A model generated the notes under the pieces. It saw nothing but the letters and a program-made list of their open reading frames with translations, was not told where the DNA came from and searched no databases. Positions 3,596-34,888 of a stretch of 64,000 bases of DNA are shown here, one piece after another. Within the stretch, counting starts at the first letter, position 1. Each line of letters starts with the position of its first letter. The DNA is from Trypanosoma brucei. Lineage: Eukaryota. Made by a program: the position numbers and the translations under genes. Location of the stretch: positions 1,056,001 through 1,120,000 of the forward strand of contig AE017150.2 in assembly GCA_000002445.1 (NCBI GenBank). Direction: 5' to 3'.

Positions 3596-6500
3596 ATGGT
3601 TGCCACGGAACAATCAAGAAGAGGACAAGATCCGTGTGGAGATGTAACCGACATACGAAAACCCTCCTCAATAGAGGCAGCGGAGCCTTCAGACTATTCG
3701 TCAAGCTCAGGCAATAGAGGTGAGGGCGGACGCGAATCTCGGGGTATTTGGGCATTCAAACGTGCATCATTAGTTTCGGTACCACAAACTCCCAAAACAC
3801 ATCAAGCTAGCTGGTCAACGAGCAATAGAGAAGGAAGAGGAGGAGGAAACAGACATCGTGTGTCATGGCACCAACATCTCGATCCCCATCCTAACACAGG
3901 AGCTTCGGTAGATGATGGAGCAACTTTCTGGAAAGTTCCTCGTAAAGTTTCTGAGGATCCTGAAGATAATATGTCGACTACACACTCAATTTCCACGAGT
4001 GTATCGGATCCAGTCTCCCCATCAGCAGCAAATGTGGTAGTCAAGTCTGCGACCGCCGAAAATATTTGTGTTGGAGCTTCAACCGACGGGGAAATGAAAG
4101 CAATGCCTCACAGTATGCTGCTTGATGGGGAAGTGTGGGAGTACATATATCTTAGAAAATCGTCAGAACTGCGGGATGCCTTTGCTTCTGATATTGGCGA
4201 TGTGTTAGGTTTTCCTTTTTCGACACCCATTGAGTTTACACCCACAAGAACTGGAATATTAGCGCACTGCACATTACTGTATCCTGAGACCATGAAAACT
4301 GAAGAGCTATACGAGAGGTTATCGCGAGACAAATTTCCCGCGATGAGAAGACTATATCAAACAGCAAAACGAGAGCACATGATAACAAGTTGCTCGACGA
4401 TGTACACCACGAACATTTCTGACAGGCCCATAAGTCCATCGCCGGAAGATATGGACGGACGCCGAGGCAGCATGCAAATGATGTCTTCTGCAACTAGTAC
4501 AAACCATAAACCTGAAGAATATTGTCTGTCAAAAAGGGAAGAAAGTAGAGATGCAACAAAAGAAGATGCGACGGGAATGGACACCGAATCGCAAGAAATT
4601 CATTATAGTCGTTTCACCGAACGGTCTATGAGTCGCATATCCATGGTTCCTGCTGATATCCGTGAGGCTGGTATGTCTAAGAGCCATGTTGTGACATCGC
4701 GTGCAGCCAGTCCCAGATGTGCCAAATGTCTTGATCAGTCTATGAGTCACATATCCATGGTTCCTGCTGATGTCCGTGAGGCTGGTATGTCTAAGAGCCA
4801 TGTTGAGCCATCGCGTGCAGCCAGTCCCAGATGTGCCAAATGTCTTGATCAGTCTATGAGTCGTATATCCATGGTTCCTGCTGATATCCGTGAGGCTGGT
4901 ATGTCTAAGAGCCATGTTGTGACATCGCGTGCAGCCAGTCCCAGATGTGCCAAATGTCTTGATCAGTCTATGAGTCACATATCCATGGTTCCTGCTGATA
5001 TCCGTGAGGCTGGTATGTCTAAGAGTGAGGTTGAACCATCTTTAGCAGCCAGTCTGAAATGTGGCAAATGTCTTGATCAGTCTATGAGTCGCATATCCAC
5101 ATTGCCTGCTGATATCCGTGAGGCTGGTATGTCTAAGAGCCATGTTGTGACATCGCGTGCAGCCAGTCCCAGATGTGCCAAATGTCTTGATCAGTCTATG
5201 AGTCGCCCATCCACATTGCCTGCTGATATCCGTGAGGCTGGTATGTCTAAGAGCCATGTTGTGACATCGCGTGCAGCCAGTCCCAGATGTGCCAAATGTC
5301 TTGATCAGTCTATGAGTCGCCAATCGACATTGCCTGCTGATATCCGTGAGGCTGGTATGTCTAAGAGTGAGGTTGAGCCATCTTTAGCAGCCAGTCTGAA
5401 ATGTGGCAAATGTCTTGATCAGTCTATGAGTCGCATATCTATGATGCCTGCTGATGTCCGTGAGGCTGGTATGTCTAAGAGTGAGGTTGAGCCATCTTTA
5501 GCAGCCAGTCTGAAATGTGGCAAGTGTCTTGGTCAGTCTATGAGTCGCATATCTATGATGCCTGCTGATGTCCGTGAGGCTGGTATGTCTAAGAGCCATG
5601 TTGTGACATCGCGTGCAGCCAGTCCCAGATGTGCCAAATGTCTTGATCAGTCTATGAGTCGCATATCTATGATGCCTGCTGATGTCCGTGAGGCTGGTAT
5701 GTCTAAGAGCCATGTTGTGACATCGCGTGCAGCCAGTCCCAGATGTGCCAAATGTCTTGATCAGTCTATGAGTCGCATATCTATGATGCCTGCTGGTGTC
5801 CGTGAGGCTGGTATGTCTAAGAGCCATGTTGTGACATCGCGTGCAGCCAGTCCCAGATGTGCCAAATGTCTTGATCAGTCTATGAGTCGCATATCTATGA
5901 TGCCTGCTGATGTCCGTGAGGCTGGTATGTCTAAGAGCCATGTTGTGACATCGCGTGCAGCCAGTCCCAGATGTGCCAAATGTCTTGATCAGTCTATGAG
6001 TCGCATATCTATGATGCCTGCTGATGTCCGTGAGGCTGGTATGTCTAAGAGCCATGTTGTGACATCGCGTGCAGCCAGTCCCAGATGTGCCAAATGTCTT
6101 GATCAGTCTATGAGTCACATATCCATGGTTCCTGCTGATGTCCGTGAGGCTGGTATGTCTAAGAGCCATGTTGTGACATCGCGTGCAGCCAGTCCCAGAT
6201 GTGCCAAATGTCTTGATCAGTCTATGAGTCACATATCCATGGTTCCTGCTGATGTCCGTGAGGCTGGTATGTCTAAGAGCCATGTTGTGACATCGCGTGC
6301 AGCCAGTCCCAGATGTGCCAAATGTCTTGATCAGTCTATGAGTCGCATATCTATGATGCCTGCTGATGTCCGTGAGGCTGGTATGTCTAAGAGCCATGTT
6401 GTGACATCGCGTGCAGCCAGTCCCAGATGTGCCAAATGTCTTGATCAGTCTATGAGTCGCTCATCCACATTGCCTGCTGATGTCCGTGAGGCTGGTATGT

Positions 6501-7324
6501 CTAAGAGCCATGTAGTGACATCGCGTGCAGCCAGTCCCAGATGTGCCAAATGTCTTGATCAGTCTATGAGTCGCATATCTATGATGCCTGCTGATGTCCG
6601 TGAGGCTGGTATGTCTAAGAGCCATGTTGTGACATCGCGTGCAGCCAGTCCCAGATGTGCCAAATGTCTTGATCAGTCTATGAGTCGCATATCCACATTG
6701 CCTGCTGATATCCGTGAGGCTGGTATGTCTAAGAGCCATGTTGTGACATCGCGTGCAGCCAGTCCCAGATGTGCCAAATGTCTTGATCAGTCTATGAGTC
6801 ACATATCCATGGTTCCTGCTGATGTCCGTGAGGCTGGTATGTCTAAGAGTGAGGTTGAACCATCTTTAGCAGCCAGTCTGAGATGTGCCAAATGTCTTGA
6901 TCAGTCTATGAGTCGCATATCCACATTGCCTGCTGATATCCGTGAGGCTGGTATGTCTAAGAGCCATGTTGTGACATCGCGTGCAGCCAGTCCCAGATGT
7001 GCCAAATGTCTTGATCAGTCTATGAGTCGCATATCTATGATGCCTGCTGATGTCCGTGAGGCTGGTATGTCTAAGAGCCATGTTGTGACATCGCGTGCAG
7101 CCAGTCCCAGATGTGCCAAATGTCTTGATCAGTCTATGAGTCGCATATCCACATTGCCTGCTGATATCCGTGAGGCTGGTATGTCTAAGAGCCATGTTGT
7201 GACATCGCGTGCAGCCAGTCCCAGATGTGCCAAATGTCTTGATCAGTCTATGAGTCACATATCCATGGTTCCTGCTGATGTCCGTGAGGCTGGTATGTCT
7301 AAGAGTGAGGTTGAGCCATCGTGA
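3596..7324 (+). CDS. Giant tandem-repeat protein, part 1. A unique N-terminus is followed by a 255-aa conserved domain and then about 30 copies of a 38-aa repeat. The frame is terminated by an in-frame TGA inside a repeat.
   Basis: The 1242-aa ORF carries a 114-nt repeat (consensus SMSRISMMPADVREAGMSKSHVVTSRAASPRCAKCLDQ) from 4621 onward. The stop at 7322-7324 interrupts an otherwise perfect repeat. The same frame reopens at 7364. Confidence 0.6.
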   Translation: MVATEQSRRGQDPCGDVTDIRKPSSIEAAEPSDYSSSSGNRGEGGRESRGIWAFKRASLVSVPQTPKTHQASWSTSNREGRGGGNRHRVSWHQHLDPHPNTGASVDDGATFWKVPRKVSEDPEDNMSTTHSISTSVSDPVSPSAANVVVKSATAENICVGASTDGEMKAMPHSMLLDGEVWEYIYLRKSSELRDAFASDIGDVLGFPFSTPIEFTPTRTGILAHCTLLYPETMKTEELYERLSRDKFPAMRRLYQTAKREHMITSCSTMYTTNISDRPISPSPEDMDGRRGSMQMMSSATSTNHKPEEYCLSKREESRDATKEDATGMDTESQEIHYSRFTERSMSRISMVPADIREAGMSKSHVVTSRAASPRCAKCLDQSMSHISMVPADVREAGMSKSHVEPSRAASPRCAKCLDQSMSRISMVPADIREAGMSKSHVVTSRAASPRCAKCLDQSMSHISMVPADIREAGMSKSEVEPSLAASLKCGKCLDQSMSRISTLPADIREAGMSKSHVVTSRAASPRCAKCLDQSMSRPSTLPADIREAGMSKSHVVTSRAASPRCAKCLDQSMSRQSTLPADIREAGMSKSEVEPSLAASLKCGKCLDQSMSRISMMPADVREAGMSKSEVEPSLAASLKCGKCLGQSMSRISMMPADVREAGMSKSHVVTSRAASPRCAKCLDQSMSRISMMPADVREAGMSKSHVVTSRAASPRCAKCLDQSMSRISMMPAGVREAGMSKSHVVTSRAASPRCAKCLDQSMSRISMMPADVREAGMSKSHVVTSRAASPRCAKCLDQSMSRISMMPADVREAGMSKSHVVTSRAASPRCAKCLDQSMSHISMVPADVREAGMSKSHVVTSRAASPRCAKCLDQSMSHISMVPADVREAGMSKSHVVTSRAASPRCAKCLDQSMSRISMMPADVREAGMSKSHVVTSRAASPRCAKCLDQSMSRSSTLPADVREAGMSKSHVVTSRAASPRCAKCLDQSMSRISMMPADVREAGMSKSHVVTSRAASPRCAKCLDQSMSRISTLPADIREAGMSKSHVVTSRAASPRCAKCLDQSMSHISMVPADVREAGMSKSEVEPSLAASLRCAKCLDQSMSRISTLPADIREAGMSKSHVVTSRAASPRCAKCLDQSMSRISMMPADVREAGMSKSHVVTSRAASPRCAKCLDQSMSRISTLPADIREAGMSKSHVVTSRAASPRCAKCLDQSMSHISMVPADVREAGMSKSEVEPS
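3856..4620 (+). repeat. Copy 1 of a 765-nt (255-aa) non-repetitive domain, from (R)VSWHQHLD...DGATFWKVPRKVSEDPEDNMST to SRFTER. It precedes repeat array 1.
   Basis: Near-identical to 8141-8905, with only scattered substitutions (for example SATAEN versus YSGAEN). Confidence 0.85.
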
Positions 7325-8052
7325 GCAGCCAGTCTGAGATGTGCCAAATGTCTTGATCAGTCTATGAGTCGCATATCCACATTGCCTGCTGATATCCGTG
7401 AGGCTGGTATGTCTAAGAGCCATGTTGTGACATCGCGTGCAGCCAGTCCCAGATGTGCCAAATGTCTTGATCAGTCTATGAGTCGCATATCTATGATGCC
7501 TGCTGATGTCCGTGAGGCTGGTATGTCTAAGAGCCATGTTGTGACATCGCGTGCAGCCAGTCCCAGATGTGCCAAATGTCTTGATCAGTCTATGAGTCGC
7601 ATATCCACATTGCCTGCTGATATCCGTGAGGCTGGTATGTCTAAGAGCCATGTTGTGACATCGCGTGCAGCCAGTCCCAGATGTGCCAAATGTCTTGATC
7701 AGTCTATGAGTCACATATCCATGGTTCCTGCTGATGTCCGTGAGGCTGGTATGTCTAAGAGCCATGTTGTGACATCGCGTGCAGCCAGTCCCAGATGTGC
7801 CAAATGTCTTGATCAGTCTATGAGTCGCTCATCGACATTGCCTGCTGATGTCCGTGAGGCTGGTATGTCTAAGAGTGAGGTTGAACCATCTTTAGCAGCC
7901 AGTCTGAGATGTGCCAAATGTCTTGATCAGTCTATGAGTCGCTCATCGACATTGCCTGATGATGTCCGTGAGGCTGGTATGTCTAAGAGTGAGGTTGAAC
8001 CATCTTTAGCAGCCAGTTCCAGATGTGCCAAATGTCTTGATCAGTCTATGAG
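4621..8052 (+). repeat. Coding tandem array 1. It has about 30 units of 114 nt (38 aa). H-type units (SKSHVVTSRAASPRCAKC) predominate, with interspersed E-type units (SKSEVEPSLAASLKCGKC).
   Basis: The period was measured directly. tctatgagtcgc recurs at 4625 and 4739, 114 nt apart, and the register holds for about 3.4 kb. Confidence 0.9.
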
Positions 8053-11000
8053 TGTTGGGTCTGATTTTGTTTCTGTTTTGTTAGTTGGTGGTGTAAATGA
8101 AGTTGGCAACGACCGCTCTGGTTTCCAAAGGAAACGGTACCCCGTGTCGTGGCACAAACATTGTGATGGTCCTTCGCCGTTGCGATCTTTGTGTGATGAT
8201 GGGGCAACTTTCTGGAAAGTTCCTCGTAAAGTTTCTGAGGATCCTGAAGATAATATGTCGACTGCACACTCAATTTCCACGAGTGTATCGGATCCAGTCT
8301 CCCCATCAGCAGTAAATGTGGTGGTAAAGTACAGTGGAGCCGAAAATATTTGTGTTGGAGCTTCAACCGACGGGGAAATGAAAGCAATGCCTCACACCAT
8401 GCTGCTTGATGGGGAAGTGTGGGAGTACATATATCTTAGAAAATCGTCAGAACTGCGGGATGCCTTTGCTTCTGATATTGGCGATGTGTTAGGTTTTCCT
8501 TTTTCGACACCCATTGAGTTTACACCCACAAGAACTGGAATATTAGCGCACTGTACATTACTGTATCCTGAGACCATGAAAACTGAAGAGCTATACGAGA
8601 GGTTATCGCGAGACAAATTTCCCGCGATGAGAAGACTATATCAAACAGCAAAACGAGAGCAGATGATAACAAGTTGCTCGACGATGTACACCACGAACAT
8701 TTGTGACAGGCCCATAAGTCCACCGCCGGAAGATATGGACGGACGCCGAGGCAGCATGCAAATGATGTCTTCTGCAACTAGTACAAACCATAAACCTGAA
8801 GAATATTGTCTGTCAAAAAGGGAAGAAAGAAGAGATGCAACTAAAGAAGATGCGACGGGAATGGACACCGAATCGCAAGAAATTCATTATAGTCGTTTCA
8901 CCGAACGGTCTATGAGTCGCATATCCATGGTTCCTGCTGATGTCCGTGAGGCTGGTATGTCTAAGAGTGAGGTTGAACCATCTTTAGCAGCCAGTCTGAG
9001 ATGTGCCAAATGTCTTGATCAGTCTATGAGTCACATATCTATGATGCCTGCTGATGTCCGTGAGGCTGGTATGTCTAAGAGTGAGGTTGAGCCATCTTTA
9101 GCAGCCAGTCTGAGATGTGCCAAATGTCTTGATCAGTCTATGAGTCGCATATCTATGATGCCTGCTGATGTCCGTGAGGCTGGTATGTCTCAGAGCCAAA
9201 TTGGAACATTACCCGCAACTATTCCCGTTTATTGCCCACAATTGCTTGAGCGCTGTATGAGCTGTGCTTCTACTATACTTGCTGATGTCCGTGAGGCTGG
9301 TATGTCTCAGAGCCAGATTGGAACATTACCCGCAAGTATTCCCGTTTATTGCCCACAATTGCTTGAGCGCTGTATGAGCTGTGCTTCTACTATACTTGCT
9401 GATGTCCGTGAGGCTGGTATGTCTCAGAGCCAGATTGGAACATTACCCGCAACTATTCCCGTTTATTGCCCACAATTGCTTGAGCGCTGTATGAGCTGTG
9501 CTTCTACTATACTTGCTGATGTCCGTGAGGCTGGTATGTCTCAGAGCCAGATTGGAACATTACCCGCAACTATTCCCGTTTATTGCCCACAATTGCTTGA
9601 GCGCTGTATGAGCTGTGCTTCTACTATACTTGCTGATGTCCGTGAGGCTGGTATGTCTAAGAGTGAGGTTGAACCATCTTTAGCAGCCAGTCCCAGATGT
9701 GCCAAATGTCTTGATCAGTCTATGAGTCGCATATCTATGATGCCTGCTGATGTCCGTGAGGCTGGTATGTCTAAGAGTGAGGTTGAACCATCTTTAGCAG
9801 CCAGTCTGAGATGTGGCAAATGTCTTGATCAGTCTATGAGTCGCATATCTATGATGCCTGCTGATATCCGTGAGGCTGGTATGTCTAAGAGTGAGGTTGA
9901 ACCATCTTTAGCAGCCAGTCTGAAATATGGCAAATGTCTTGATCAGTCTATGAGTCGCATATCTATGATGCCTGCTGATGTCCGTGAGGCTGGTATGTCT
10001 AAGAGTGAGGTTGAACCATCTTTAGCAGCCAGTCTGAGATGTGGCAAATGTCTTGATCAGTCTATGAGTCGCATATCTATGATGCCTGCTGATATCCGTG
10101 AGGCTGGTATGTCTAAGAGTGAGGTTGAACCATCTTTAGCAGCCAGTCTGAGATGTGGCAAATGTCTTGATCAGTCTATGAGTCGCATATCTATGATGCC
10201 TGCTGATGTCCGTGAGGCTGGTATGTCTAAGAGTGAGGTTGAACCATCTTTAGCAGCCAGTCTGAGATGTGGCAAATGTCTTGATCAGTCTATGAGTCGC
10301 ATATCTATGATGCCTGCTGATGTCCGTGAGGCTGGTATGTCTAAGAGTGAGGTTGAACCATCTTTAGCAGCCAGTCTGAGATGTGCCAAATGTCTTGATC
10401 AGTCTATGAGTCGCATATCTATGATGCCTGCTGATATCCGTGAGGCTGGTATGTCTAAGAGTGAGGTTGAACCATCTTTAGCAGCCAGTCTGAAATATGG
10501 CAAATGTCTTGATCAGTCTATGAGTCGCATATCTATGATGCCTGCTGATGTCCGTGAGGCTGGTATGTCTAAGAGTGAGGTTGAACCATCTTTAGCAGCC
10601 AGTCTGAGATGTGCCAAATGTCTTGATCAGTCTATGAGTCGCATATCTATGATGCCTGCTGATATCCGTGAGGCTGGTATGTCTAAGAGTGAGGTTGAAC
10701 CATCTTTAGCAGCCAGTCTGAAATATGGCAAATGTCTTGATCAGTCTATGAGTCGCATATCTATGATGCCTGCTGATATCCGTGAGGCTGGTATGTCTAG
10801 GAGTGAGGTTGAACCATCTTTAGCAGCCAGTCTGAAATATGGCAAATGTCTTGATCAGTCTATGAGTCGCATATCTATGATGCCTGCTGATGTCCGTGAG
10901 GCTGGTATGTCTAAGAGTGAGGTTGAACCATCTTTAGCAGCCAGTCTGAAATATGGCAAATGTCTTGATCAGTCTATGAGTCGCATATCTATGATGCCTG

Positions 11001-13342
11001 CTGATATCCGTGAGGCTGGTATGTCTAGGAGTGAGGTTGAACCATCTTTAGCAGCCAGTCTGAAATGTGGCAAATGTCTTGATCAGTCTATGAGTCGCAT
11101 ATCTATGATGCCTGCTGATGTCCGTGAGGCTGGTATGTCTAAGAGTGAGGTTGAACCATCTTTAGCAGCCAGTCTGAAATATGGCAAATGTCTTGATCAG
11201 TCTATGAGTCGCATATCTATGATGCCTGCTGATATCCGTGAGGCTGGTATGTCTAGGAGTGAGGTTGAACCATCTTTAGCAGCCAGTCTGAAATGTGGCA
11301 AATGTCTTGATCAGTCTATGAGTCGCATATCTATGATGCCTGCTGATGTCCGTGAGGCTGGTATGTCTAAGAGTGAGGTTGAACCATCTTTAGCAGCCAG
11401 TCTGAAATATGGCAAATGTCTTGATCAGTCTATGAGTCGCATATCTATGATGCCTGCTGATGTCCGTGAGGCTGGTATGTCTAAGAGTGAGGTTGAACCA
11501 TCTTTAGCAGCCAGTCTGAAATGTGGCAAATGTCTTGATCAGTCTATGAGTCGCATATCCATGATGCCTGCTGATGTCCGTGAGGCTGGTATGTCTAAGA
11601 GTGAGGTTGAACCATCTTTAGCAGCCAGTCTGAAATATGGCAAATGTCTTGATCAGTCTATGAGTCGCATATCTATGATGCCTGCTGATGTCCGTGAGGC
11701 TGGTATGTGTAAAAGGGGTGAAGCGGAGTCACTTGTTGTTAGTTCAAATAGCCGTGAGGTTAATGGTGGTGTTAAGAATTTATCCAGTGGTAATTCTTCT
11801 GCATCGTTGGACGGTAGGAAGTTTGTTTGTTCGTCGGGCAAAAGTGGTGATTATTCCGCTTCTTTCGGTGACGGTGGTTGTTGTCAAATCGTCGGTGGTG
11901 CTGAAGCGGGTGGTGTTGTTGTCTTAGAGGAATTTCGAGACATACCGAGTGGTGCTGGTTCGAATTTACCGGTACCTGTTGATGAAGTTCCTGGCGGTGG
12001 TGTGAGAATGTCGTCCGATGTTGATAAAAGCGTTTCCGGTGGCTTGTTAGAAGTATTAAAGAATTGTTCGTCTTCCAGGGGAGGTGAAAGTTTTCCGTTA
12101 GTTGCAGTTCAAGCGCTGGCGAGTCGCCAGTCTGAAAATCGCCAACCGGTGCGATGCTCTTTCAATTCTGTTGCTGAAGGCAGGTACTACGACTCGGGTC
12201 TTTTGGATGAGCGTAACGATTGGTGCGTTCCTCCCCGTGGTGTGATGCAGGGTGCAGTTGGCAGCGCACTGTGTCTTGTAAGGGGCGTTGGCGCGGTTAA
12301 TTTTGATGGATCGCCGGACATAAGCGTCACTTCTGTGGCTTCTTCTGTTGGTGATAAAGTGCCTTCGATGATTAGAGGTGAACAACGCAGGGCGAGCACC
12401 AACAGTGCTTTGCCAGATGTCGTGCCGAAAGTTGCTGACCCACCTCTTGAAGCTCCGGTTTCTTTAATTGAGGGTGAAAAAGTGTCTGTGGCCTGGGAGT
12501 CACAATTTGGGGGTAGTGCAGATCCAAAGGAGCGTTTTCTGGATCTCTCTACAACACCTCAGCATGAAAATCCGTCTCGGTTTCTCTCAAGAATGGGTAG
12601 CCTCTGTCGTTGGGGCCTCGGGTCGCAGAAGGCAAAATGTGAGGACAGCGCGGAGACGCTGAAGCGATGGGCGCAGGATAGTACCAAATATCTTATAGGA
12701 GTTCAGGAACCGGACACCGTTGCGGAGGAGTTGCCGTCCCTATCAGATGCCCGCGGAATGCCACCAATGGTGAAAGCTAGTAGCTCGTCGGATAAAAATT
12801 TCTCGCAACTTGGTCCTTTTGACACAAGCAATGGGGACCATAAGGGAGAGGAACTGACCACTTTAAGGAGGTGGTCAAAGAGTAATCAAGGGAAGAGTAT
12901 TGCCGGCAGTGGTACGGAGGAACCACGTAGCATAGCAACAAGGAATTCAGATCCAAATCTGCCTCTGTTGCGGATTCGCAAAAGTGCCAGTGGTTCGCCA
13001 CTGCTTCCGCTGGCTACGGGTGACAAAGGCCTTGCAAAGTGGGAAGATGATGGCGTCACTTCGTTACCCCCCATTATATCTCAGAGCGCAAACACTCCGC
13101 TTGGGTGCGATGCCGCTTCAAAACGGAGAGTAGGTGACAGTTACGTTTGGGATATACGCGATGTGAGCATGTCGTCGGCTTCCCCTAACACCTCTTATCT
13201 GGACATTGAGGCTGAGGGTGAAGCGTTCGATATATTCAAACGCCTCTTGCACGATATTGATGTTGCAAGTCGAGCCATCTCTAAGCCTGTACAAGCGCTT
13301 AGAGAGCTGCGTGACGGGAGGAAGTATGAAAATTCCTCGTGA
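7364..13342 (+). CDS. Giant tandem-repeat protein, part 2, in the same frame as part 1. It holds the rest of repeat array 1, a second copy of the 255-aa domain, repeat array 2 (38-aa and 39-aa units), and a unique Ser/Gly/Val-rich 545-aa C-terminus.
   Basis: The 1992-aa ORF continues the repeat phase across the stop. Whether translation restarts at Met 7364 or the locus is a single disrupted or mis-assembled gene cannot be decided from sequence alone. Confidence 0.55.
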   Translation: MSRISTLPADIREAGMSKSHVVTSRAASPRCAKCLDQSMSRISMMPADVREAGMSKSHVVTSRAASPRCAKCLDQSMSRISTLPADIREAGMSKSHVVTSRAASPRCAKCLDQSMSHISMVPADVREAGMSKSHVVTSRAASPRCAKCLDQSMSRSSTLPADVREAGMSKSEVEPSLAASLRCAKCLDQSMSRSSTLPDDVREAGMSKSEVEPSLAASSRCAKCLDQSMSVGSDFVSVLLVGGVNEVGNDRSGFQRKRYPVSWHKHCDGPSPLRSLCDDGATFWKVPRKVSEDPEDNMSTAHSISTSVSDPVSPSAVNVVVKYSGAENICVGASTDGEMKAMPHTMLLDGEVWEYIYLRKSSELRDAFASDIGDVLGFPFSTPIEFTPTRTGILAHCTLLYPETMKTEELYERLSRDKFPAMRRLYQTAKREQMITSCSTMYTTNICDRPISPPPEDMDGRRGSMQMMSSATSTNHKPEEYCLSKREERRDATKEDATGMDTESQEIHYSRFTERSMSRISMVPADVREAGMSKSEVEPSLAASLRCAKCLDQSMSHISMMPADVREAGMSKSEVEPSLAASLRCAKCLDQSMSRISMMPADVREAGMSQSQIGTLPATIPVYCPQLLERCMSCASTILADVREAGMSQSQIGTLPASIPVYCPQLLERCMSCASTILADVREAGMSQSQIGTLPATIPVYCPQLLERCMSCASTILADVREAGMSQSQIGTLPATIPVYCPQLLERCMSCASTILADVREAGMSKSEVEPSLAASPRCAKCLDQSMSRISMMPADVREAGMSKSEVEPSLAASLRCGKCLDQSMSRISMMPADIREAGMSKSEVEPSLAASLKYGKCLDQSMSRISMMPADVREAGMSKSEVEPSLAASLRCGKCLDQSMSRISMMPADIREAGMSKSEVEPSLAASLRCGKCLDQSMSRISMMPADVREAGMSKSEVEPSLAASLRCGKCLDQSMSRISMMPADVREAGMSKSEVEPSLAASLRCAKCLDQSMSRISMMPADIREAGMSKSEVEPSLAASLKYGKCLDQSMSRISMMPADVREAGMSKSEVEPSLAASLRCAKCLDQSMSRISMMPADIREAGMSKSEVEPSLAASLKYGKCLDQSMSRISMMPADIREAGMSRSEVEPSLAASLKYGKCLDQSMSRISMMPADVREAGMSKSEVEPSLAASLKYGKCLDQSMSRISMMPADIREAGMSRSEVEPSLAASLKCGKCLDQSMSRISMMPADVREAGMSKSEVEPSLAASLKYGKCLDQSMSRISMMPADIREAGMSRSEVEPSLAASLKCGKCLDQSMSRISMMPADVREAGMSKSEVEPSLAASLKYGKCLDQSMSRISMMPADVREAGMSKSEVEPSLAASLKCGKCLDQSMSRISMMPADVREAGMSKSEVEPSLAASLKYGKCLDQSMSRISMMPADVREAGMCKRGEAESLVVSSNSREVNGGVKNLSSGNSSASLDGRKFVCSSGKSGDYSASFGDGGCCQIVGGAEAGGVVVLEEFRDIPSGAGSNLPVPVDEVPGGGVRMSSDVDKSVSGGLLEVLKNCSSSRGGESFPLVAVQALASRQSENRQPVRCSFNSVAEGRYYDSGLLDERNDWCVPPRGVMQGAVGSALCLVRGVGAVNFDGSPDISVTSVASSVGDKVPSMIRGEQRRASTNSALPDVVPKVADPPLEAPVSLIEGEKVSVAWESQFGGSADPKERFLDLSTTPQHENPSRFLSRMGSLCRWGLGSQKAKCEDSAETLKRWAQDSTKYLIGVQEPDTVAEELPSLSDARGMPPMVKASSSSDKNFSQLGPFDTSNGDHKGEELTTLRRWSKSNQGKSIAGSGTEEPRSIATRNSDPNLPLLRIRKSASGSPLLPLATGDKGLAKWEDDGVTSLPPIISQSANTPLGCDAASKRRVGDSYVWDIRDVSMSSASPNTSYLDIEAEGEAFDIFKRLLHDIDVASRAISKPVQALRELRDGRKYENSS
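8141..8905 (+). repeat. Copy 2 of the 255-aa domain, embedded in-frame between repeat arrays 1 and 2.
   Basis: Aligns to 3856-4620. It is entered from array 1 through a short unique linker (SVGSDFVSVLLVGGVNEVGNDRSGFQRKRYP) with no intergenic sequence. Confidence 0.85.
8906..11705 (+). repeat. Coding tandem array 2. It has about 20 units of 114 nt (mostly E-type, with LKYGKC or LRCGKC variants) plus four units of 117 nt.
   Basis: The same repeat family as array 1. It is bounded by the second copy of the 255-aa domain upstream and the unique C-terminal domain downstream. Confidence 0.9.
9182..9650 (+). repeat. Sub-array of four near-identical 117-nt (39-aa) variant repeats, SQSQIGTLPATIPVYCPQLLERCMSCASTILADVREAGM.
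   Basis: ggtatgtctcag recurs at 9182 and 9299, 117 nt apart. The four copies are almost identical, which suggests recent amplification. Confidence 0.85.
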
Positions 13343-28457: not shown

Positions 28458-31070
28458 ATGGCACATTCAGATCGCCAATGTACAAACGCAGCGCAAACTG
28501 CATTGTCAGATGCTGTTGAGTCGGCACGGAAGCACAACAACGGTTTTGTCGATCCCGCGCATCTTGCGCTTGTATTGTTTAAGAATGAAGATGGACTTGC
28601 TTCACGTGTATTGCGTAAACTCAATGCGGGTACGGTGCTGGAGCCACTCGCCGCACGAGTTGGTGCACTTCCGGAGCAGAGGCCCGCGCCCGCGGTTCCA
28701 TCACCTTCTCCAGCGATGGTGGTTGTGCTCAACACCGCAGAGCAGAAGCGAATAGAGTGGGGTGACTCACTTATTGCTGTTGATCATCTTCTTATTGGGT
28801 TGTTTGAATGTAAGGAAGTTGAGGCCATCATGAAGGCCGCACACGCGTCGAAGAAAGCCGTTGAAGGTGCGCTTCTGGAGTTACGCAAAGGAAAGAAGGT
28901 TACATCCGAATTCCAGGAGGAAAACTACCAAGCTCTTGAAAAATACGCAACCGACTTGTGTAAACTGGCGGAGGAGGGGAAACTTGATCCAGTGATTGGG
29001 CGGACTGATGAGGTTCTGCGCACAATACGCGTTCTATCGAGACGAACAAAAAACAACCCAATTCTGATTGGTGAGCCCGGTGTCGGCAAGACTGCGATCG
29101 CGGAGGGAATTGCGCAGCGGATTGTACGTGGGGACGTGCCGGACACCTTGTTGAATACACGTTTGTTTTCCCTTGACCTCGGCGCCCTTATCGCTGGAAG
29201 CTCGCTTCGGGGCGAGTTTGAGGAGCGTCTCAAGAGTGTGCTAAACGAAGTGAAGGAGAGCTCCAATGGAGTTATTTTGTTTATTGATGAGATTCACCTC
29301 GTCCTCGGGGCAGGGAAGTCCGGTGGCTCGATGGATGCCGCAAATTTGCTGAAACCAATGCTCGCACGTGGAGAACTTCGTACTATTGGAGCGACTACAC
29401 TGGAGGAGTATCGCACATATGTCGAGAAGGATGCCGCATTTGAGAGGCGCTTCATGCCTGTGTATGTTACAGAGCCCAGTGTTGAAGAGTGCATCAGCAT
29501 CCTTCGTGGCCTAAAGGACCGGTATGAGGCACACCACGGTGTTCAAATTACTGACAATGCGGTTGTTGTTGCAGCACAGCTGGCGAACCGTTACATCACA
29601 AACCGCTTCATGCCTGACAAGGCCATCGACCTCATTGATGAAGCGTGTGCCAATGTGAGGGTGCAGCTTTCATCGCGGCCGGAGGCGATTGACATCCTTG
29701 AGCGCAAGAAACGCCAGCTGGAGATTGAGGCGAAGGCTCTCGAACGTGACAAGGAAGCTGCTTCACGGGAGCGACTAAAACTTGTGAAGGCGGATATACA
29801 GCGCGTTGAGGAGGAGTTGCAACCACTTGTCAGCAAGTATAATGATGAGCGTCAACGTATTGATGAGCTTCAGGAGATGCAGTCGCGTCTTGATGAGAAG
29901 AAGAACAAACTGGAGCGCGCTGTGCGTGATGGCAAAATGGACTTGGCTGCAGACCTCCAGTACAATGTCATCCCCCTGATTCAGGACCGCATTCGGTCGT
30001 TGAAGGAGGACATTGAAAGACAGAAGGCCACATTGGTGCAGGAAAAGGTTACTGAAGGTGACGTCGCCGCTGTGGTTGCCCGCTGGACCGGCATCCCTGT
30101 GGTTAAATTGAGTCAGACGGATCGGGAACGGCTATTGAACCTTTCCATGCATCTCCACCGACGCGTGAAGGGACAAGATGAGGCGGTTGAGCGGGTTGCC
30201 GATGCTATTATTCGTGCTCGTGCGGGCCTGTCGCGGCCCAACTCCCCAACTGCCTCGTTTCTATTCCTTGGACCCACGGGTGTTGGAAAGACAGAACTGG
30301 TTAAAGCCGTTGCTGCCGAGTTGTTTGACGACGAAAAGCATATGGTACGCATTGACATGAGCGAGTATATGGAGCAACATTCGGTGTCACGGTTGATTGG
30401 TGCACCACCTGGTTACATTGGCCATGACGAGGGCGGACAGTTGACGGAACCAGTGCGGCGGCGCCCTCACGCCGTTGTGTTGTTTGATGAGGTGGAAAAG
30501 GCACATCCAAATGTGTACAATGTGCTACTGCAAGTACTGGATGATGGCCGCTTGACTGACTCGCGTGGACGGACGGTGGACTTCAGCAACACCATCATCG
30601 TCATGACATCTAACCTCGGCTCTGAGCACCTCTTGAACCCTGAGGAGACGAATGAATCTTATGAGGTACTGCGTGAGAATGTGTTGGCTGCCGTGCGGTC
30701 TTACTTCCGACCTGAGCTCATCAATCGCTTGGATGATATTGTTGTGTTCCGAAGACTTCGTACAGAAGACCTGCGGGGTGTCGTTGACAATCTTATCGCT
30801 GGCGTTAACGAGCGTCTCAAATCCAGTGGGTTTTCTGTTTTGCTGGATGATGGTGTGAAGGATTTCATTTTGGAGCATGGCCACGATGCCAATATGGGCG
30901 CTCGCCCGCTACGCCGTTGGATCGAAAAGAACATCGTCACTGAAATCGGCCGCATGCTCATCGCGAAGGAGCTGCCACCAAACAGCACTTTACGAGTTTC
31001 ACTTCCTGAAGGTGGGAACAAACTGACGTTTGGTGTGAAACGGGGGCTTACCAGTGACGAATGGGAATAA
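28458..31070 (+). CDS. HSP104: HSP104 / ClpB-type AAA+ disaggregase chaperone.
   Basis: Two AAA+ modules are present. Walker A motifs are GEPGVGKT and GPTGVGKT. Walker B motifs are ILFIDEIH and [12 protein letters not shown] coiled-coil middle domain lies between them, and the ClpB N-domain and C-terminal domain are present. Confidence 0.92.
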
Positions 31071-31480: not shown

Positions 31481-32275
31481 TTGTTATTTGCTCGAGTCAG
31501 TGCGTTCTAGTACTACTACTGTTTTTGCATGTTCCGTACTGGTGCGCTGTCCAAGATTCTTTGTCGTTTCTTATGGCGTCATGACTGAGCGGATAAATAA
31601 ATTGCAGCATTAATTGTCTGAGGAGCTTATCCCTGACATCTTTCAACTCGTTCTGCATGTGCGTGTTACTGTTATTATTGTTATTATTATTAAGTGATGT
31701 TTTCATTGTACCACTTTCTTTTCTTCTTCCCTTTGGTTCATTTATTTATTTATTTTGAATGGTTTCTCTTAAGTGTGTGGCCGCACTGCTGTACACCACC
31801 AATAATATAGAAGATAGGCATTCCAATAAGGGGATATTAATTGTGTATATATATATATATATATATTATTCTTAGGAATAGTCTCTATTATTGTGTGGCT
31901 CCCATCCGGGGAGGGGGAAAGAAAAAAAAAAAAGAGACACCAAACCGAACTGAATAATTTTCCGGAACCGAAGGAAGTGAAACCACTGTATCATCACCAT
32001 TATTAATATAATTATAATTATTATAATTATTAAGATTATTATTATTATTATCCAGTTCTCCCCGTGTTTTGTGCTTACGTTTCTTTCCTAATTTCTTTCT
32101 TTTTTAAAGTAGCGGCCAAGCCCCGTGGTGCTGGAATTTTCTTCATAAACGTGATTAGGTGTGACTAAAGCACCTTCTGGCTGTCGTCGTAGTTGTTGTT
32201 ATTGCTTCTTCTTCCTTTTTTTTCTTTTTATTTTGTTTGTTTGTCGTTTGTGTGTGGGTGCGTGTGGGTGTGTGA

Positions 32276-32278
32276 GAG

Positions 32279-32309
<31 letters not shown>

Positions 32310-32312
32310 AAA
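32276..32312 (+). repeat. (GAAA)n microsatellite, about 8 units, immediately upstream of the GPI-PLC start codon.
   Basis: Read directly as agaaagaaagaaagaaagaaagaaagaaagaaa. Confidence 0.9.
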
Positions 32313-32352
32313 AGAGGGGAAGGGGACTTTGAGACGGTTAAGAATCTTTGTA

Positions 32353-33429
32353 ATGTTTGGTGGTGTAAAGTGGTCACCGCAGTCATGGATGAGTGACACG
32401 CGGTCTTCCATTGAGAAGAAATGTATTGGTCAAGTATATATGGTAGGAGCACATAATGCAGGAACACACGGCATACAAATGTTTTCCCCGTTTGGATTAG
32501 ATGCCCCTGAAAAGTTACGAAGCCTCCCTCCATATGTGACCTTTCTTTTAAGATTTCTTACTGTTGGTGTGAGCAGCAGATGGGGACGTTGTCAAAATCT
32601 TTCTATTCGACAGCTTTTGGATCATGGGGTGCGTTATCTCGACTTACGCATGAACATAAGTCCGGATCAGGAAAATAAAATTTACACAACGCATTTCCAT
32701 ATTTCTGTTCCACTACAAGAGGTTCTGAAGGATGTCAAGGATTTCTTGACCACACCTGCAAGCGCCAACGAATTTGTCATCCTCGATTTCTTGCATTTCT
32801 ACGGATTTAATGAGAGCCATACGATGAAGCGCTTTGTTGAGGAGCTGCAAGCACTTGAGGAGTTTTACATTCCCACAACCGTCTCTTTAACCACACCACT
32901 TTGTAACCTCTGGCAGTCAACCAGACGTATTTTTCTTGTTGTGAGACCTTATGTAGAATACCCTTATGCACGACTCCGCAGTGTTGCGCTTAAATCCATT
33001 TGGGTTAATCAAATGGAGTTGAATGATCTTCTCGACCGGTTGGAGGAACTCATGACGCGTGATTTGGAAGATGTCAGTATTGGCGGGGTTCCATCTAAAA
33101 TGTACGTCACGCAAGCTATCGGTACGCCGCGAAATAACGACTTTGCGGTGGCAGCGTGTTGTGGCGCGTGTCCCGGTTCACATCCCGATTTGTATTCCGC
33201 TGCAAAGCATAAAAATCCACATCTTTTGCAGTGGTTTTATGATTTAAATGTTAATGGTGTTATGCGAGGGGAGCGTGTGACTATAAGACGGGGAAACAAT
33301 ACACATGGAAATATACTTTTGCTTGATTTCGTGCAAGAAGGCACTTGTACCGTTAAGGGAGTCGACAAACCGATGAATGCCGTTGCGTTATGCGTTCATT
33401 TAAACACCAACCAAACCGCAAGGTCATAA
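32353..33429 (+). CDS. GPI-PLC: Glycosylphosphatidylinositol-specific phospholipase C (GPI-PLC, the VSG lipase).
   Basis: 358-aa product beginning MFGGVKWSPQSWMSDTRSSIEKKCIGQVYMVGAHNAGTHG, with His at position 34 in a PI-PLC X-box-like motif. A C-terminal CCGAC cysteine cluster (AVAACCGACPGSHPD) is present. Both match what is known of T. brucei GPI-PLC. The start is set at the ATG at 32353. The upstream ORF extension translates pyrimidine and (GAAA)n tracts. Confidence 0.9.
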   Translation: MFGGVKWSPQSWMSDTRSSIEKKCIGQVYMVGAHNAGTHGIQMFSPFGLDAPEKLRSLPPYVTFLLRFLTVGVSSRWGRCQNLSIRQLLDHGVRYLDLRMNISPDQENKIYTTHFHISVPLQEVLKDVKDFLTTPASANEFVILDFLHFYGFNESHTMKRFVEELQALEEFYIPTTVSLTTPLCNLWQSTRRIFLVVRPYVEYPYARLRSVALKSIWVNQMELNDLLDRLEELMTRDLEDVSIGGVPSKMYVTQAIGTPRNNDFAVAACCGACPGSHPDLYSAAKHKNPHLLQWFYDLNVNGVMRGERVTIRRGNNTHGNILLLDFVQEGTCTVKGVDKPMNAVALCVHLNTNQTARS

Positions 33430-34849
33430 AAATGTGGGAAAAAAAACAAATCTCTGCTGCGTTTGTGACTGAAACAAGGGTTTAAAAGTAAAAAAAAAGT
33501 TAAGTGGACGACGAAATAACAACAAAGGGAAGGAAGGAAAATTAAAATTAAAAAAAAAATTAAAAAAAAAAGGGCGACAACGACGTTGGAAGAGTGTGAA
33601 CTATATACATATATATATATGTATTCCTCCTGTTTTTTTTTGATTTGTCTCTTGCTTAAAAAAGAAAGAAGAAGAAGAGGAGGAGGGGGAGAGAAAAGAA
33701 AAAAGAAAGCGATCAAATGAAAGGTCAGTGGATTATTGAGGGGGACGGTGTTTGAAAGAGAGAGTGAATGCGAATACATGTGCCAGTGGTACTGCTGCTA
33801 TATTAAAAAAAAAAATTATACGGGTATGGTGTGGAAGCAAATGTGGGGGTTTTTATTTTTAATCCTTAAAAAGCAAAAGCAAAAGCAAAAAACGGGAAAC
33901 TAATACGCTATGCGTTTTGTGCCTTAAATGTACGGGCCCTCACATGCTTTATTTTCCATTCTGGTTTTTACCCGTATTCAACTTTTATTCCATTTTTTCT
34001 TTATTTTTATATATGCATGCGTGCATATATATATATATATATATTTATATGTTGATTTATTTATTTATGCATTATTGTGTCCCTTATTATGCTTTCTTTT
34101 CTTCCCAAATTTCTTCCATTTTGCTTTGAAAATTTGTGGTCATACGGAATTGGTATGAAAGGAGGAGTTTTACAACAGCAACAAAAAAAAAAAGAAAAAG
34201 AAAAAAAAGAGAAAAGAAAAGAATAATTTAAAGAAAATAAAATAAAATAAAGAAAAGAAAAGAGAGATGATGTCGGTTAAAAAAAAAAGGGAAGGATGTT
34301 GAGTGGAGAAGTGGAGGAAATAAATAACAACAATGCACCAAACAGCAGTTTAGTTTTTTTTTTTTGCTACACATATTTCTACATGTATATTTACTTATGT
34401 TTCCGTACGAATACAAAATGAATACATTTCTATATTTTTGTATTTGTAATCGCCACTCTTTTGAATTTAAACAGAAAAGAAAAAAAAAATTAAAAAGAAG
34501 AGAAGGAGTGAAAAGTGCGAAGTGAAAGAGGGGGAAAAAAAAAAAGAAATCGGAAGGGAATTGCACGTGTCTCCCGTGAAGGAATGTTTTTTTTTTTTTA
34601 ACGTAAAAGTAAATAAATAATGCAAGGAAAAGAGTGAAAATCTAATAAAAATAAAATGAACTTTTAGATATTGATGAAACGGCTGCTGCAAAACAAATGA
34701 TATGTTTTTTTTTTTAAATGCACCACCTCATCAAAGTAGAGAATTAAAGTTTTTTTTTTTTAGAAAAAAAAGCGGAAAATATACGTATGGAATTGGGAAT
34801 GGAATAAGAGGAGGAGAAAGAAGAAGAGGAAGAAGAAAAGTGGTGCTTT

Positions 34850-34888
34850 TTTGTTTGTTTGTTTGTTTGTTTGTTTGTTTGTTTGTTA
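34850..34888 (+). repeat. (GTTT)n microsatellite, about 9 units.
   Basis: Read directly within the 3.5-kb intergenic region. Confidence 0.9.

What the first reader, a model, noticed from the sequence alone, without database searches (positions are those of the whole stretch)
3596..13342. Giant protein gene of about 9.7 kb built from roughly 54 tandem 38/39-aa repeats in three subfamilies
A 114-nt unit (SMSRISMMPADVREAGMSKSHVVTSRAASPRCAKCLDQ) repeats with a conserved CxxC (C-A/G-K-C) at the end of each unit. A second subfamily replaces SHVVTSRAASPR with SEVEPSLAASLK/R. A third, 117-nt unit (SQSQIGTLPATIPVYCPQLLERCMSCASTILADVREAGM) is present as four near-identical copies.

The repeat length is a multiple of three, and identity at the nucleotide level is extremely high. 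That pattern points to ongoing concerted evolution. In kinetoplastids, high-copy repeat proteins of this kind are often cytoskeletal or flagellar, and some are immunodominant antigens.

One CxxC per 38 aa in about 50 copies would give a very large array of possible metal- or redox-active cysteine pairs. I do not recognise this protein as a characterised one.
Basis: seen in the sequence. Interest (0 to 1): 0.7.

Follow-up and report, generated by a model that had tools for sequence, protein, structure and literature searches.

The report
Known trypanosome flagellar-tip giant repeat protein

Summary
The repeats exist as described: 50 units of 38 aa, four of 39 aa, and one reading frame from 3596 to 13342. 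Three corrections apply.

- The frame holds one internal TGA (7322-7324), so the reference annotates two genes.
- There are two arrays. A 97% identical second copy of the N-terminal domain separates them.
- Eight units read YGKC instead of CGKC.

The window is T. brucei TREU927 chromosome 2, and the gene is Tb927.2.5860 + Tb927.2.5870. Published long-read data give one 2788-aa gene in Lister 427 (Tb427_020030800). TrypTag tagging and AC1-APEX2 proteomics place the protein at the distal flagellar tip, and it is used as a tip marker.

New here:
- The only folded module is a FAZ1_cons domain, present twice, with a SEA-like predicted fold. Proteins annotated FLAM8 and Gb4 also carry this domain.
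- Orthologues occur across Trypanosoma with the same 38-aa period.
- CxxC is found only in T. brucei and T. congolense.
- AlphaFold gives no fold for the repeats.

The most likely role is a long, disordered, multivalent tether or scaffold in the tip signalling microdomain. A zinc or redox role for CxxC is unsupported but not excluded. I rate it already known and of modest interest.

The parts
3596..13342 (+). Whole gene: Tb927.2.5860 + Tb927.2.5870 read as one frame (3248 codons plus stop, about 349 kDa if TGA 7322 is read as a sense codon)
   Evidence: Tb927.2.5860 is 1242 aa, flanked by Tb927.2.5830 (307 aa) and Tb927.2.5890 (452 aa), in Cosentino 2021 supplement. Neighbours are exact TREU927 proteins.
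3596..4624 (+). N-terminal non-repeat region (343 aa). Predicted disordered except for the FAZ1_cons domain.
   Evidence: The start is supported by alignment with T. congolense MVAL....
4109..4363 (+). FAZ1_cons domain, copy 1 (aa 172-256)
4625..8044 (+). Array 1: 30 units of 114 nt / 38 aa, mostly H-type (SMSRISMMPADVREAGMSKSHVVTSRAASPRCAKCLDQ)
7322..7324 (+). In-frame TGA that splits the reference annotation. The codon pair TCG TGA alternates H-type (TCG CGT) and E-type (TCT TTA) bases.
   Evidence: The 456-nt block 6791-7246 differs from 7247-7702 at only 3 bases, all within 9 nt at this site.
8045..8908 (+). 288-aa spacer. Positions 8195-8908 are a 97% identical duplicate of 3911-4624.
8393..8647 (+). 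FAZ1_cons domain, copy 2
   Evidence: Pfam PF23398, E 2.4e-10, 40.7 bits
8909..9136 (+). Array 2, first two E-type units
9137..9718 (+). One 38-aa unit split by four 39-aa units (in-frame units 9188-9655: SQSQIGTLPATIPVYCPQLLERCMSCASTILADVREAGM). The four units are 98-100% identical to each other.
9719..11707 (+). Array 2, 17 E-type units plus a 17-aa partial unit. Eight units have YGKC instead of CGKC.
11708..13342 (+). C-terminal non-repeat region with no Pfam hit. It contains two stretches conserved with T. cruzi-clade orthologues: DWCxPPR...ERxLD, and the terminal FxRLLxxxxxAxRxIxKPVxxLRxL at about 13139-13318.
   Evidence: BLASTP against P0034 gives E 2e-7 and 2e-5.

Best explanation
Shown:
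- The region is the T. brucei TREU927 chromosome 2 locus annotated as Tb927.2.5860 and Tb927.2.5870. These are two halves of one gene, which is Tb427_020030800 (2788 aa) in Lister 427.
- Architecture: a disordered N-terminus; a roughly 90-aa FAZ1_cons domain with a SEA-like alpha/beta prediction; 30 repeats of 38 aa; a duplicated second FAZ1_cons module; about 24 more repeats; and a C-terminal region with two conserved motifs.
- The same plan (FAZ1_cons, then 38-aa repeats, then a conserved C-terminus) is found in T. congolense, T. cruzi, T. c. marinkellei, T. rangeli, T. grayi and T. theileri.

Inferred:
- The protein works as a long, largely unfolded, multivalent tether or scaffold of the flagellar-tip microdomain that also holds the receptor adenylate cyclases, CARP3, FLAM8 and calpain-like proteins.
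- It is held in place through its two ends. Published tags that truncate either half mislocalise to the cytoplasm.
- The repeat array supplies length and many identical docking or modification sites. The motifs MSRxS, E-A/N-x-M and S-x-A-A-S are conserved. CxxC was added only in the T. brucei/T. congolense lineage.
- The internal TGA is most likely a consensus error of the Sanger reference, or a variant of one allele, and not a true gene boundary.

I put the identity at about 0.97 and the scaffold mechanism at about 0.5.
For: Identity:
- Five neighbouring ORFs are exact matches to TREU927 proteins on a 1,193,948-bp contig.
- ORF 3596-7324 is 1242 aa, the length of Tb927.2.5860. The gene order 5830 (307 aa), 5850, 5860, 5890 (452 aa), 5900 matches the window.

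One gene:
- Both ORFs are in the same frame.
- Cosentino 2021 (PMC8445201) reports a single 2788-aa gene in a PacBio assembly. It also reports that N-terminal tagging of 5860 and C-terminal tagging of 5870 label the tip, while the two gene-breaking tags give a cytoplasmic signal.
- The stop codon is a base-by-base mosaic of the two unit types, inside a 456-nt block that is otherwise 99.3% duplicated.

Tip location:
- Tb927.2.5860 and 5870 are the two most enriched non-cyclase proteins in the detergent-soluble AC1-APEX2 proteome, with ratios 15.9 and 10.7.
- mSc::Tb427.02.5860 is used as a bloodstream-form tip marker and is weaker on the new flagellum.

Domain and disorder:
- Pfam FAZ1_cons hits twice.
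- In the AF2 model of residues 1-381, only residues 165-270 are folded.
- Four repeats give pLDDT 33.7.

Family:
- A profile search of 1.84 billion representatives gives 22 hits, all through the domain.
- Orthologues share the domain position, the 38-aa period and the C-terminal motifs.
- The same domain occurs 7 times in a Leishmania protein annotated Flagellar Member 8, and in proteins annotated Gb4.
Against: - No functional data exist: I found no knockout or RNAi phenotype.
- The scaffold role is inferred from size, disorder prediction, location and neighbours in a proximity proteome.
- The AF2 disorder calls rest on very shallow alignments (3 and 9 sequences), so a metal-dependent or partner-dependent fold could be missed.
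- The mislocalisation of truncated tags could reflect misfolding or altered UTRs and not loss of targeting signals.
- The copy number in the TREU927 reference (54 units) is unverified and differs from Lister 427.
- Similarity at repeat level between T. brucei and the T. cruzi clade is weak on its own (hhalign E 0.009, probability 4%). It relies on shared context and phase.
Confidence: 0.6

Rival explanations
1. Zinc or redox array. Each CxxC pairs with a CxxC of a neighbouring unit or of another molecule to bind Zn2+ (a Rad50-hook-like or zinc-clasp-like Cys4 site), or to form reversible disulfides. This would make the array a metal- or redox-dependent cross-linked mesh or sensor at the flagellar tip.
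For: - There are 46 CxxC motifs at a strict 38/39-aa spacing.
- The CxxC is also present in the otherwise different 39-aa unit, as CMSC.
- C375 and C378 of the first unit are invariant between T. brucei and T. congolense although the surrounding residues diverge. T. congolense has two further CxxC in degenerate units.
Against: - Eight of 17 units in the most homogeneous part of array 2 carry YGKC.
- There is no CxxC in the orthologous repeats of five other Trypanosoma species.
- AF2 shows no hairpin or knuckle geometry, only low-confidence helices, at pLDDT 33.7.
- No zinc-finger Pfam model passes as an individual domain.
- There is one CxxC per unit, not the two that a zinc ribbon needs.
Confidence: 0.13
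2. S-acylated membrane tether. The repeated cysteines are palmitoylated, pinning a long disordered chain to the inner face of the flagellar-tip membrane beside the adenylate cyclases.
For: - The protein is recovered in the detergent-soluble fraction.
- It is the protein most enriched near the cytoplasmic tag on the tip membrane protein AC1.
- It does not overlap with the detergent-insoluble axonemal-cap and flagella-connector proteomes, according to that paper.
- The many cysteines sit in a basic, disordered context.
Against: - There is no direct evidence of acylation.
- I could not retrieve a T. brucei palmitoyl-proteome to check.
- Orthologues lacking the cysteines presumably still function, though their location is untested.
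- Proximity to AC1 does not require membrane attachment.
Confidence: 0.1
3. MARP-like microtubule binder. The 38-aa units bind the tubulin lattice as the 38-aa repeats of MARP-1/2 do, and the protein decorates or caps the plus ends of the axonemal microtubules.
For: - The unit length of 38 aa equals that of the MARP microtubule-binding repeat (PMC2289396).
- That length is conserved in six Trypanosoma species although the sequence diverges.
- The FAZ1_cons domain is shared with proteins annotated FLAM8 and Gb4. FLAM8 is proposed to sit at axonemal plus ends (PMC9481589). From my own memory of the literature, not checked here, Gb4 is a posterior-end microtubule-cap protein.
Against: - The protein is detergent-soluble and absent from the axonemal-cap proteome.
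- A search with five repeat units found no related protein at all.
- No MARP sequence was available for a direct comparison.
- MARPs decorate the subpellicular corset, not the tip.
Confidence: 0.1
4. Two real genes, or a pseudogene. The TGA at 7322 is genuine, so Tb927.2.5860 (1242 aa) ends there, and Tb927.2.5870 is separately translated or untranslated.
For: The stop is in the deposited reference, and the reference annotation has two genes.
Against: - Both parts are in the same frame with no intergenic sequence. The next ATG is only 39 nt downstream, inside a repeat unit.
- It is a single ORF in the Lister 427 long-read assembly.
- Tagging in a TREU927-derived line behaves as for one protein.
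- Peptides assigned to both halves are co-enriched.
- The stop codon is a mosaic of the two unit types.
Confidence: 0.04

Closest known systems
Tb927.2.5860 / Tb927.2.5870 (T. brucei TREU927), equal to Tb427_020030800 / Tb427.02.5860 (Lister 427); annotated 'hypothetical protein', used as a flagellum tip marker
   Same: It is this locus: same chromosome, same neighbours, and the same 1242-aa first ORF. The published tip localisation and AC1 proximity apply to it.
   Different: Nothing differs. The papers found do not describe the repeat anatomy, the duplicated FAZ1_cons module, the nature of the stop codon or the orthologue family.
FAZ1 (flagellum attachment zone protein 1), the name-giver of Pfam PF23398 FAZ1_cons
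   Same: It shares the FAZ1_cons domain. It also shares the plan of one globular domain plus a long tandem-repeat array in a kinetoplastid flagellum-associated giant protein.
   Different: It is a different locus. FAZ1 lies along the FAZ filament on the cell-body side (PMC4406125), whereas this protein is at the flagellar tip. The repeat unit here is 38 aa. From memory only, FAZ1's repeat is much shorter (14 aa).
FLAM8 (Tb927.2.5760, 3075 aa)
   Same: Both are giant proteins of the procyclic flagellar distal tip. Both are in the AC1 proximity proteome. Both genes are on chromosome 2, with gene numbers 5760 and 5860. A Leishmania protein annotated Flagellar Member 8 carries 7 FAZ1_cons domains.
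   Different: It is a separate gene, listed separately in the same table, at Tb927_02_v5.1:1034074-1043301. FLAM8 is described as cytoskeletal and spreads along the flagellum in bloodstream forms, whereas Tb427.02.5860 stays at the tip there. I saw no 38-aa CxxC repeats in the FLAM8-annotated protein.
MARP-1/MARP-2 (microtubule-associated repetitive proteins of T. brucei)
   Same: Both are about 320-kDa proteins made largely of 50 or more near-identical tandem 38-aa units.
   Different: MARPs decorate subpellicular microtubules. No sequence relation was detected, and a direct comparison was not possible. This protein is detergent-soluble and tip-specific.
T. cruzi hypothetical proteins KAF5220061 (P0044, 1174 aa) and P0047 (1060 aa), and their relatives in T. 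c. marinkellei, T. rangeli, T. grayi and T. theileri
   Same: They are orthologous in architecture: FAZ1_cons at about residue 165, 38-aa repeats in the same phase (MSRxS ... E-x-E-M ... S), and conserved C-terminal motifs.
   Different: They have no CxxC in the repeats. Most have an N-terminal CxxC-x10-CxxC (T. cruzi keeps only the first CxxC, and the partial T. grayi entry has none); T. brucei and T. congolense lack it. They have fewer annotated units (2-12, probably collapsed in assemblies) and only one FAZ1_cons copy.

Membership tests
Tb927.2.5860/5870 locus (identity) | Lies on T. brucei TREU927 chromosome 2 between Tb927.2.5830/5850 and Tb927.2.5890/5900 | tested here: met
   The flanking ORFs of 307 aa, 452 aa and 1083/1057 aa are exact TREU927 proteins. 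The order and sizes match Cosentino 2021 supplement table.
Tb927.2.5860/5870 locus (identity) | First annotated product is 1242 aa, followed by a contiguous second ORF | tested here: met
   ORF 3596-7324 is 1242 aa. ORF 7364-13342 is in the same frame.
FAZ1_cons (PF23398) domain proteins | Match to the Pfam model above its gathering score | tested here: met
   39.7 and 40.7 bits against a cutoff of 27.5, for two copies.
FAZ1_cons (PF23398) domain proteins | Compact alpha/beta domain of about 90 aa | tested here: inconclusive
FLAM8 | Is gene Tb927.2.5760 (3075 aa) | tested here: not met
   It has a different gene ID and is listed separately in the AC1 proteome.
MARP-1/2 | Tandem 38-aa repeat units | tested here: met
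   Unit length is 114 nt / 38 aa. The MARP unit length is from PMC2289396.
MARP-1/2 | Sequence similarity to the MARP repeat | not testable with these tools
   No MARP sequence could be obtained. A database search with five units returned nothing at E <= 0.001, which argues weakly against similarity.
MARP-1/2 | Stable association with subpellicular microtubules | tested here: not met
   From the literature only: flagellar tip localisation and detergent-soluble fraction.
Zinc ribbon / CxxC zinc-binding repeat | Two CxxC knuckles within one folded module | tested here: not met
   There is one CxxC per 38-aa unit. The 39-aa unit has C-x8-C-x2-C.
Zinc ribbon / CxxC zinc-binding repeat | Match to a zinc-finger profile, or a confident knuckle-like predicted fold | tested here: not met
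   No zinc family passes as an individual stretch; all such hits show 0 stretches. AF2 mean pLDDT is 33.7 with weak helices only.
Zinc ribbon / CxxC zinc-binding repeat | Cysteines conserved among units and orthologues | tested here: inconclusive
   CxxC is kept in 42 of 50 units of 38 aa and in T. congolense. It is absent from the repeats of five other Trypanosoma species.
Zinc ribbon / CxxC zinc-binding repeat | Metal actually bound | not testable with these tools
   This needs metal analysis of recombinant protein.

The most novel reading that the evidence does not exclude
The 46-fold CxxC array is a functional gain of the T. brucei/T. congolense lineage. It would replace the N-terminal CxxC-x10-CxxC found in most of the other Trypanosoma orthologues recovered. 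On this reading a disordered giant protein becomes a cysteine-dependent (Zn2+-bridged, redox-switched or S-acylated) multivalent anchor that organises the adenylate-cyclase/CARP3 signalling microdomain at the flagellar tip. That would be a kind of ciliary-tip tether not described so far.
Probability: 0.12. Interest if true: 0.65.

Novelty: already known. Interest (0 to 1): 0.3.

Why it matters
The flagellar tip of T. brucei is the site of the cAMP signalling that controls social motility and colonisation of the tsetse salivary gland (PMC9481589). This protein is the strongest non-cyclase hit next to adenylate cyclase AC1 and is a routine tip marker, yet the papers found describe no function, domain analysis or orthologue set for it.

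The analysis here provides:
- a corrected gene model;
- the duplicated FAZ1_cons module;
- the genus-wide 38-aa repeat family;
- the lineage-restricted CxxC.

These give concrete handles for truncations, Cys mutants and orthologue tagging. As a genome-scan finding it is a rediscovery of an annotated gene.

Tried and rejected
- **FLAM8 identity (from memory: a giant tip protein on chromosome 2).** Rejected. FLAM8 is Tb927.2.5760, 3075 aa, and is listed separately.
- **MARP identity (38-aa repeats).** Rejected on location, and on the absence of any hit with the repeat query. A direct sequence comparison was not possible.
- **Protein database searches.** The search for homologous proteins with an N-terminus + 2 repeats + C-terminus chimera returned only T. 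congolense TCIL3000_2_1530. The T. brucei-group proteins for this locus are not in that collection, and the exact look-up was negative. Identity therefore had to be established through neighbours and the literature.
- **T. congolense context.** The contig for P0001 is not on record.
- **Wider orthologue search.** A search with the orthologue alignment added only T. cruzi entries and no T. vivax orthologue.
- **Fold search.** The afdb50 library was unavailable.
- **Spurious matches.** Pfam hits on the repeats (AAA_lid_At3g28540, CMD, TPD1_C and others) have whole-sequence scores inflated by repetition and no individually significant stretch, so I dismissed them. The PDB hit to IcmE/DotG (E 1.7e-8) is a repeat-on-repeat compositional match, also dismissed.
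- **Interaction data.** The CARP3 BioID and pull-down supplements of PMC9481589 and the FLAM8 paper supplement show no Tb927.2.5860/5870 in the stored text. One file was truncated, so this is uninformative.
- **Palmitoylation data.** A T. brucei palmitoyl-proteome could not be found in the library.
Full report
**Observation**

Tandem Repeats Finder reports three arrays:
- a 114-nt array at 4624-8053 (30.1 copies, 93% matches);
- a 114-nt array at 8908-11712 (24.5 copies, 95%);
- a 117-nt array at 9163-9663 (4.3 copies, 98%).

Translating 3596-13342 in one frame gives 3249 codons with only two stops, one internal and one terminal. The other two + frames have 205 and 366 stops.

Cutting the translation at SMS gives 49 complete 38-aa units, one further unit interrupted by four 39-aa units, and a 17-aa partial unit.

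The three subfamilies are real:
- 23 H-type units (…SKSHVVTSRAASPRCAKCLDQ);
- 26 E-type units (…SKSEVEPSLAASLK/RC[AG]KCLDQ);
- four 39-aa units (SQSQIGTLPATIPVYCPQLLERCMSCASTILADVREAGM).

Nucleotide identity is 96% within H, 95% within E, 85% between them and 90% over all pairs. There are 27 distinct unit sequences among the 49. The second half of array 2 is 98-99% self-identical at every multiple of 114 nt.

**Corrections to the observation**

First, the frame contains an in-frame TGA at 7322-7324. ORF finding therefore returns 3596-7324 (1242 aa) and 7364-13342 (1992 aa) in the same frame.

Second, there are two arrays. They are separated by a 288-aa spacer (8045-8908). Positions 8195-8908 of the spacer are 97% identical in DNA to 3911-4624 of the N-terminal region. 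The module 'domain plus array' has therefore been duplicated in tandem inside the gene.

Third, eight E-type units of array 2 read YGKC instead of CGKC (TGT to TAT). CxxC occurs 46 times, four of them as CMSC in the 39-aa units.

Two antisense ORFs of 299 aa are by-products of the repeat.

**What it is**

All large ORFs of the window are on the + strand. Five neighbouring products are exact matches to T. brucei brucei TREU927 proteins on a 1,193,948-bp contig. They include HSP100/ClpB, and one of them is unique to TREU927.

Full-text search for gene IDs in that neighbourhood led to Cosentino et al. 2021 (PMC8445201). The paper states that Tb927.2.5860 and Tb927.2.5870 are one gene 'wrongly split' in the TREU927 assembly, and that Tb427_020030800 is the single gene in the PacBio-based Lister 427 v10 assembly.

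Their supplementary table gives Tb927.2.5860 as 1242 aa, preceded by Tb927.2.5830 (307 aa) and Tb927.2.5850 and followed by Tb927.2.5890 (452 aa). These are exactly the sizes and order seen in the window. The table gives Tb427_020030800 as 2788 aa, 91.4% identical without gaps over the first 1239 residues. The identity of the locus is therefore settled.

**The stop codon**

The stop-bearing unit reads TCG TGA where H-type units read TCG CGT and E-type units read TCT TTA. At the four positions where the two types differ, it alternates H, E, H, E.

The unit lies in a 456-nt four-unit block (7247-7702). This block differs from the preceding block (6791-7246) at only three bases, all within 9 nt at this site.

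This pattern is what a mixed consensus of two unit types, or a patchy conversion tract, would give.

TrypTag, as reported in PMC8445201, finds that the N-terminal tag on 5860 and the C-terminal tag on 5870 both label the flagellar tip. The two tags that would cut the long protein give a cytoplasmic signal. I therefore conclude that the gene is continuous on at least one allele of the tagged cells.

**What is known about the protein**

In Vélez-Ramírez et al. 2021 (PMC8141408), Tb927.2.5860 and Tb927.2.5870 head the list of the proximity proteome of the tip-specific adenylate cyclase AC1, with AC1/FS179 ratios of 15.9 and 10.7. FLAM8, CALP1.3 and CARP3 rank below them. Both are scored 'Tip', and 5870 was also tagged by the authors.

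That proteome was taken from the detergent-soluble fraction. The authors note no overlap with the detergent-insoluble axonemal-cap and flagella-connector proteomes.

Smithson et al. 2022 (PMC9826329) use mScarlet::Tb427.02.5860 as the flagellum-tip marker in bloodstream forms. The signal is at the distal tip, appears on the new flagellum after kinetoplast S phase, and is weaker on the new flagellum than on the old one.

None of the four papers that name these gene IDs in the searchable library (two are versions of the same work) reports a function, knockout or domain analysis.

**Anatomy and relatives (new analysis)**

Pfam finds one family, PF23398 'FAZ1, conserved domain'. It hits at residues 172-256 (E 4.7e-10) and again in the spacer (E 2.4e-10). 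Both hits are above the gathering score.

A profile search of 1.84 billion representative proteins gives only 22 hits, all through this domain. By their source names they include:
- a Leishmania infantum 'Flagellar_Member_8', which has seven copies of the domain by Pfam;
- 'FAZ1 conserved domain-containing' proteins;
- 'microtubule-associated protein Gb4' entries from three Trypanosoma species;
- proteins made of up to 12 tandem copies of the domain.

A subset has the domain at the same place (about residue 165) and is orthologous in architecture: T. congolense TCIL3000_2_1530, T. cruzi (1174 and 1060 aa), T. c. marinkellei, T. rangeli, T. grayi and T. theileri.

In a joint alignment the first repeat unit of all seven species lines up without gaps, with (E)R/Q-x-M-S-R-x-S at the start and E-A/N-x-M in the middle. 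All five stercorarian orthologues have a best internal period of exactly 38 residues.

The C-terminal region of the T. brucei protein matches that of T. c. marinkellei in two collinear stretches, E 2e-7 and 2e-5. On their own the repeats are only weakly similar between clades (hhalign E 0.009, gapless and in phase).

**The CxxC question**

In favour of a role:
- The motif is kept in the divergent 39-aa unit.
- The two cysteines of the first unit are invariant between T. brucei and T. congolense while most neighbouring residues differ.

Against a general role:
- The stercorarian repeats contain no CxxC.
- Eight T. brucei units have lost one cysteine.
- AlphaFold2 on four units with nine window-derived rows gives mean pLDDT 33.7, with no residue above 50 and only weak helices.
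- No zinc-finger profile gives an individually significant match.

Most of the stercorarian orthologues carry an N-terminal CxxC-x10-CxxC that T. brucei and T. congolense lack. It is complete in T. c. marinkellei, T. rangeli and T. theileri. T. cruzi keeps only the first CxxC, and the partial T. grayi entry has none.

A lineage-specific role (metal bridge, redox switch or S-acylation) remains open.

**Most likely mechanism**

The following is inference from size (about 349 kDa in this frame), predicted disorder of more than 85% of the chain, conserved ends, the behaviour of truncating tags, tip restriction, detergent solubility and closeness to AC1.

The protein is best read as a long, flexible, multivalent tether or scaffold of the tip microdomain. 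It would be anchored through both ends. The FAZ1_cons domain would act as a docking module of a kind shared with other kinetoplastid flagellum and cytoskeleton giants. The array would supply reach and many identical binding or modification sites (Ser 18%, Met 9% and Cys 5% of repeat residues).

I put this at about 0.5. The rivals are a zinc/redox array, an acylated membrane tether and a MARP-like microtubule binder, at about 0.1 each.

**Array length**

The array is real, because a long-read assembly of another strain has a single 2788-aa ORF. The TREU927 numbers come from a Sanger assembly and are unverified.

If Lister 427 keeps the same 1192 non-repeat residues, then 2788 minus 1192 is 1596, which is exactly 42 x 38. 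That would mean no 39-aa units in that strain. This is arithmetic only and was not checked against sequence.

**Verdict**

I rate its novelty as 'already known' and its interest as modest (0.3). What remains of interest is the unknown function of a prominent flagellar-tip protein and the lineage-restricted cysteine array.

Noticed in passing
window 5498-6397 (-) and 6866-7765 (-): Two antisense ORFs of exactly 299 aa lie inside array 1. They exist because the repeat unit lacks stops in one antisense frame, and they are almost certainly not genes.
   Followed up: partly
window 28458-31070 (+), 32161-33429 (+), 36934-39501 (+): Downstream neighbours are HSP100/ClpB (an exact TREU927 protein), a PI-PLC-X domain protein (from memory, probably the GPI-specific phospholipase C of T. 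brucei) and a beta'-COP-like coatomer subunit. All are on the + strand of one polycistron.
   Followed up: partly
window 51481-52869 (+) and 61941-63335 (+): Two paralogous nucleoside-transporter ORFs (PF01733, E about 1e-31 each) sit in AT-rich surroundings (GC 0.32-0.37). This looks like part of a tandem transporter cluster.
   Followed up: no
window 34001-36000: This is the lowest-GC stretch of the window (GC 0.284). It has no ORF of 200 aa or more and holds a short AT-rich 26-nt tandem repeat at 35688-35749. It is probably a long intergenic or UTR region.
   Followed up: no
P0030, P0032, P0034, P0044 (orthologues), residues 1-22: The T. c. marinkellei, T. rangeli and T. theileri orthologues start with M-x-F-x-C-x-x-C-G-x10-C-x-x-C, a zinc-ribbon-like motif. 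T. cruzi keeps only the first CxxC. T. brucei and T. congolense lack the motif entirely and instead carry CxxC in the repeats.
   Followed up: partly
P0021 (Leishmania braziliensis, 1872 aa) and P0023/P0042 (T. melophagium): These proteins are built almost entirely of near-identical tandem copies (12 in P0021) of a roughly 160-aa unit containing the FAZ1_cons domain. The domain itself can therefore be the repeat unit in other kinetoplastid giants.
   Followed up: no
P0022 (XP_050340693, labelled Bactrocera neohumeralis, 1569 aa): A protein with 8 FAZ1_cons matches is deposited under a fruit-fly name. It is probably a trypanosomatid contaminant or symbiont sequence in an insect assembly.
   Followed up: no
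window 3596-7324 and 7364-13342 versus the protein collection: The exact TREU927 products of this locus, and any T. brucei-group relatives, are absent from the 15-billion-protein collection, although all neighbouring genes are present. The reason is unknown.
   Followed up: no
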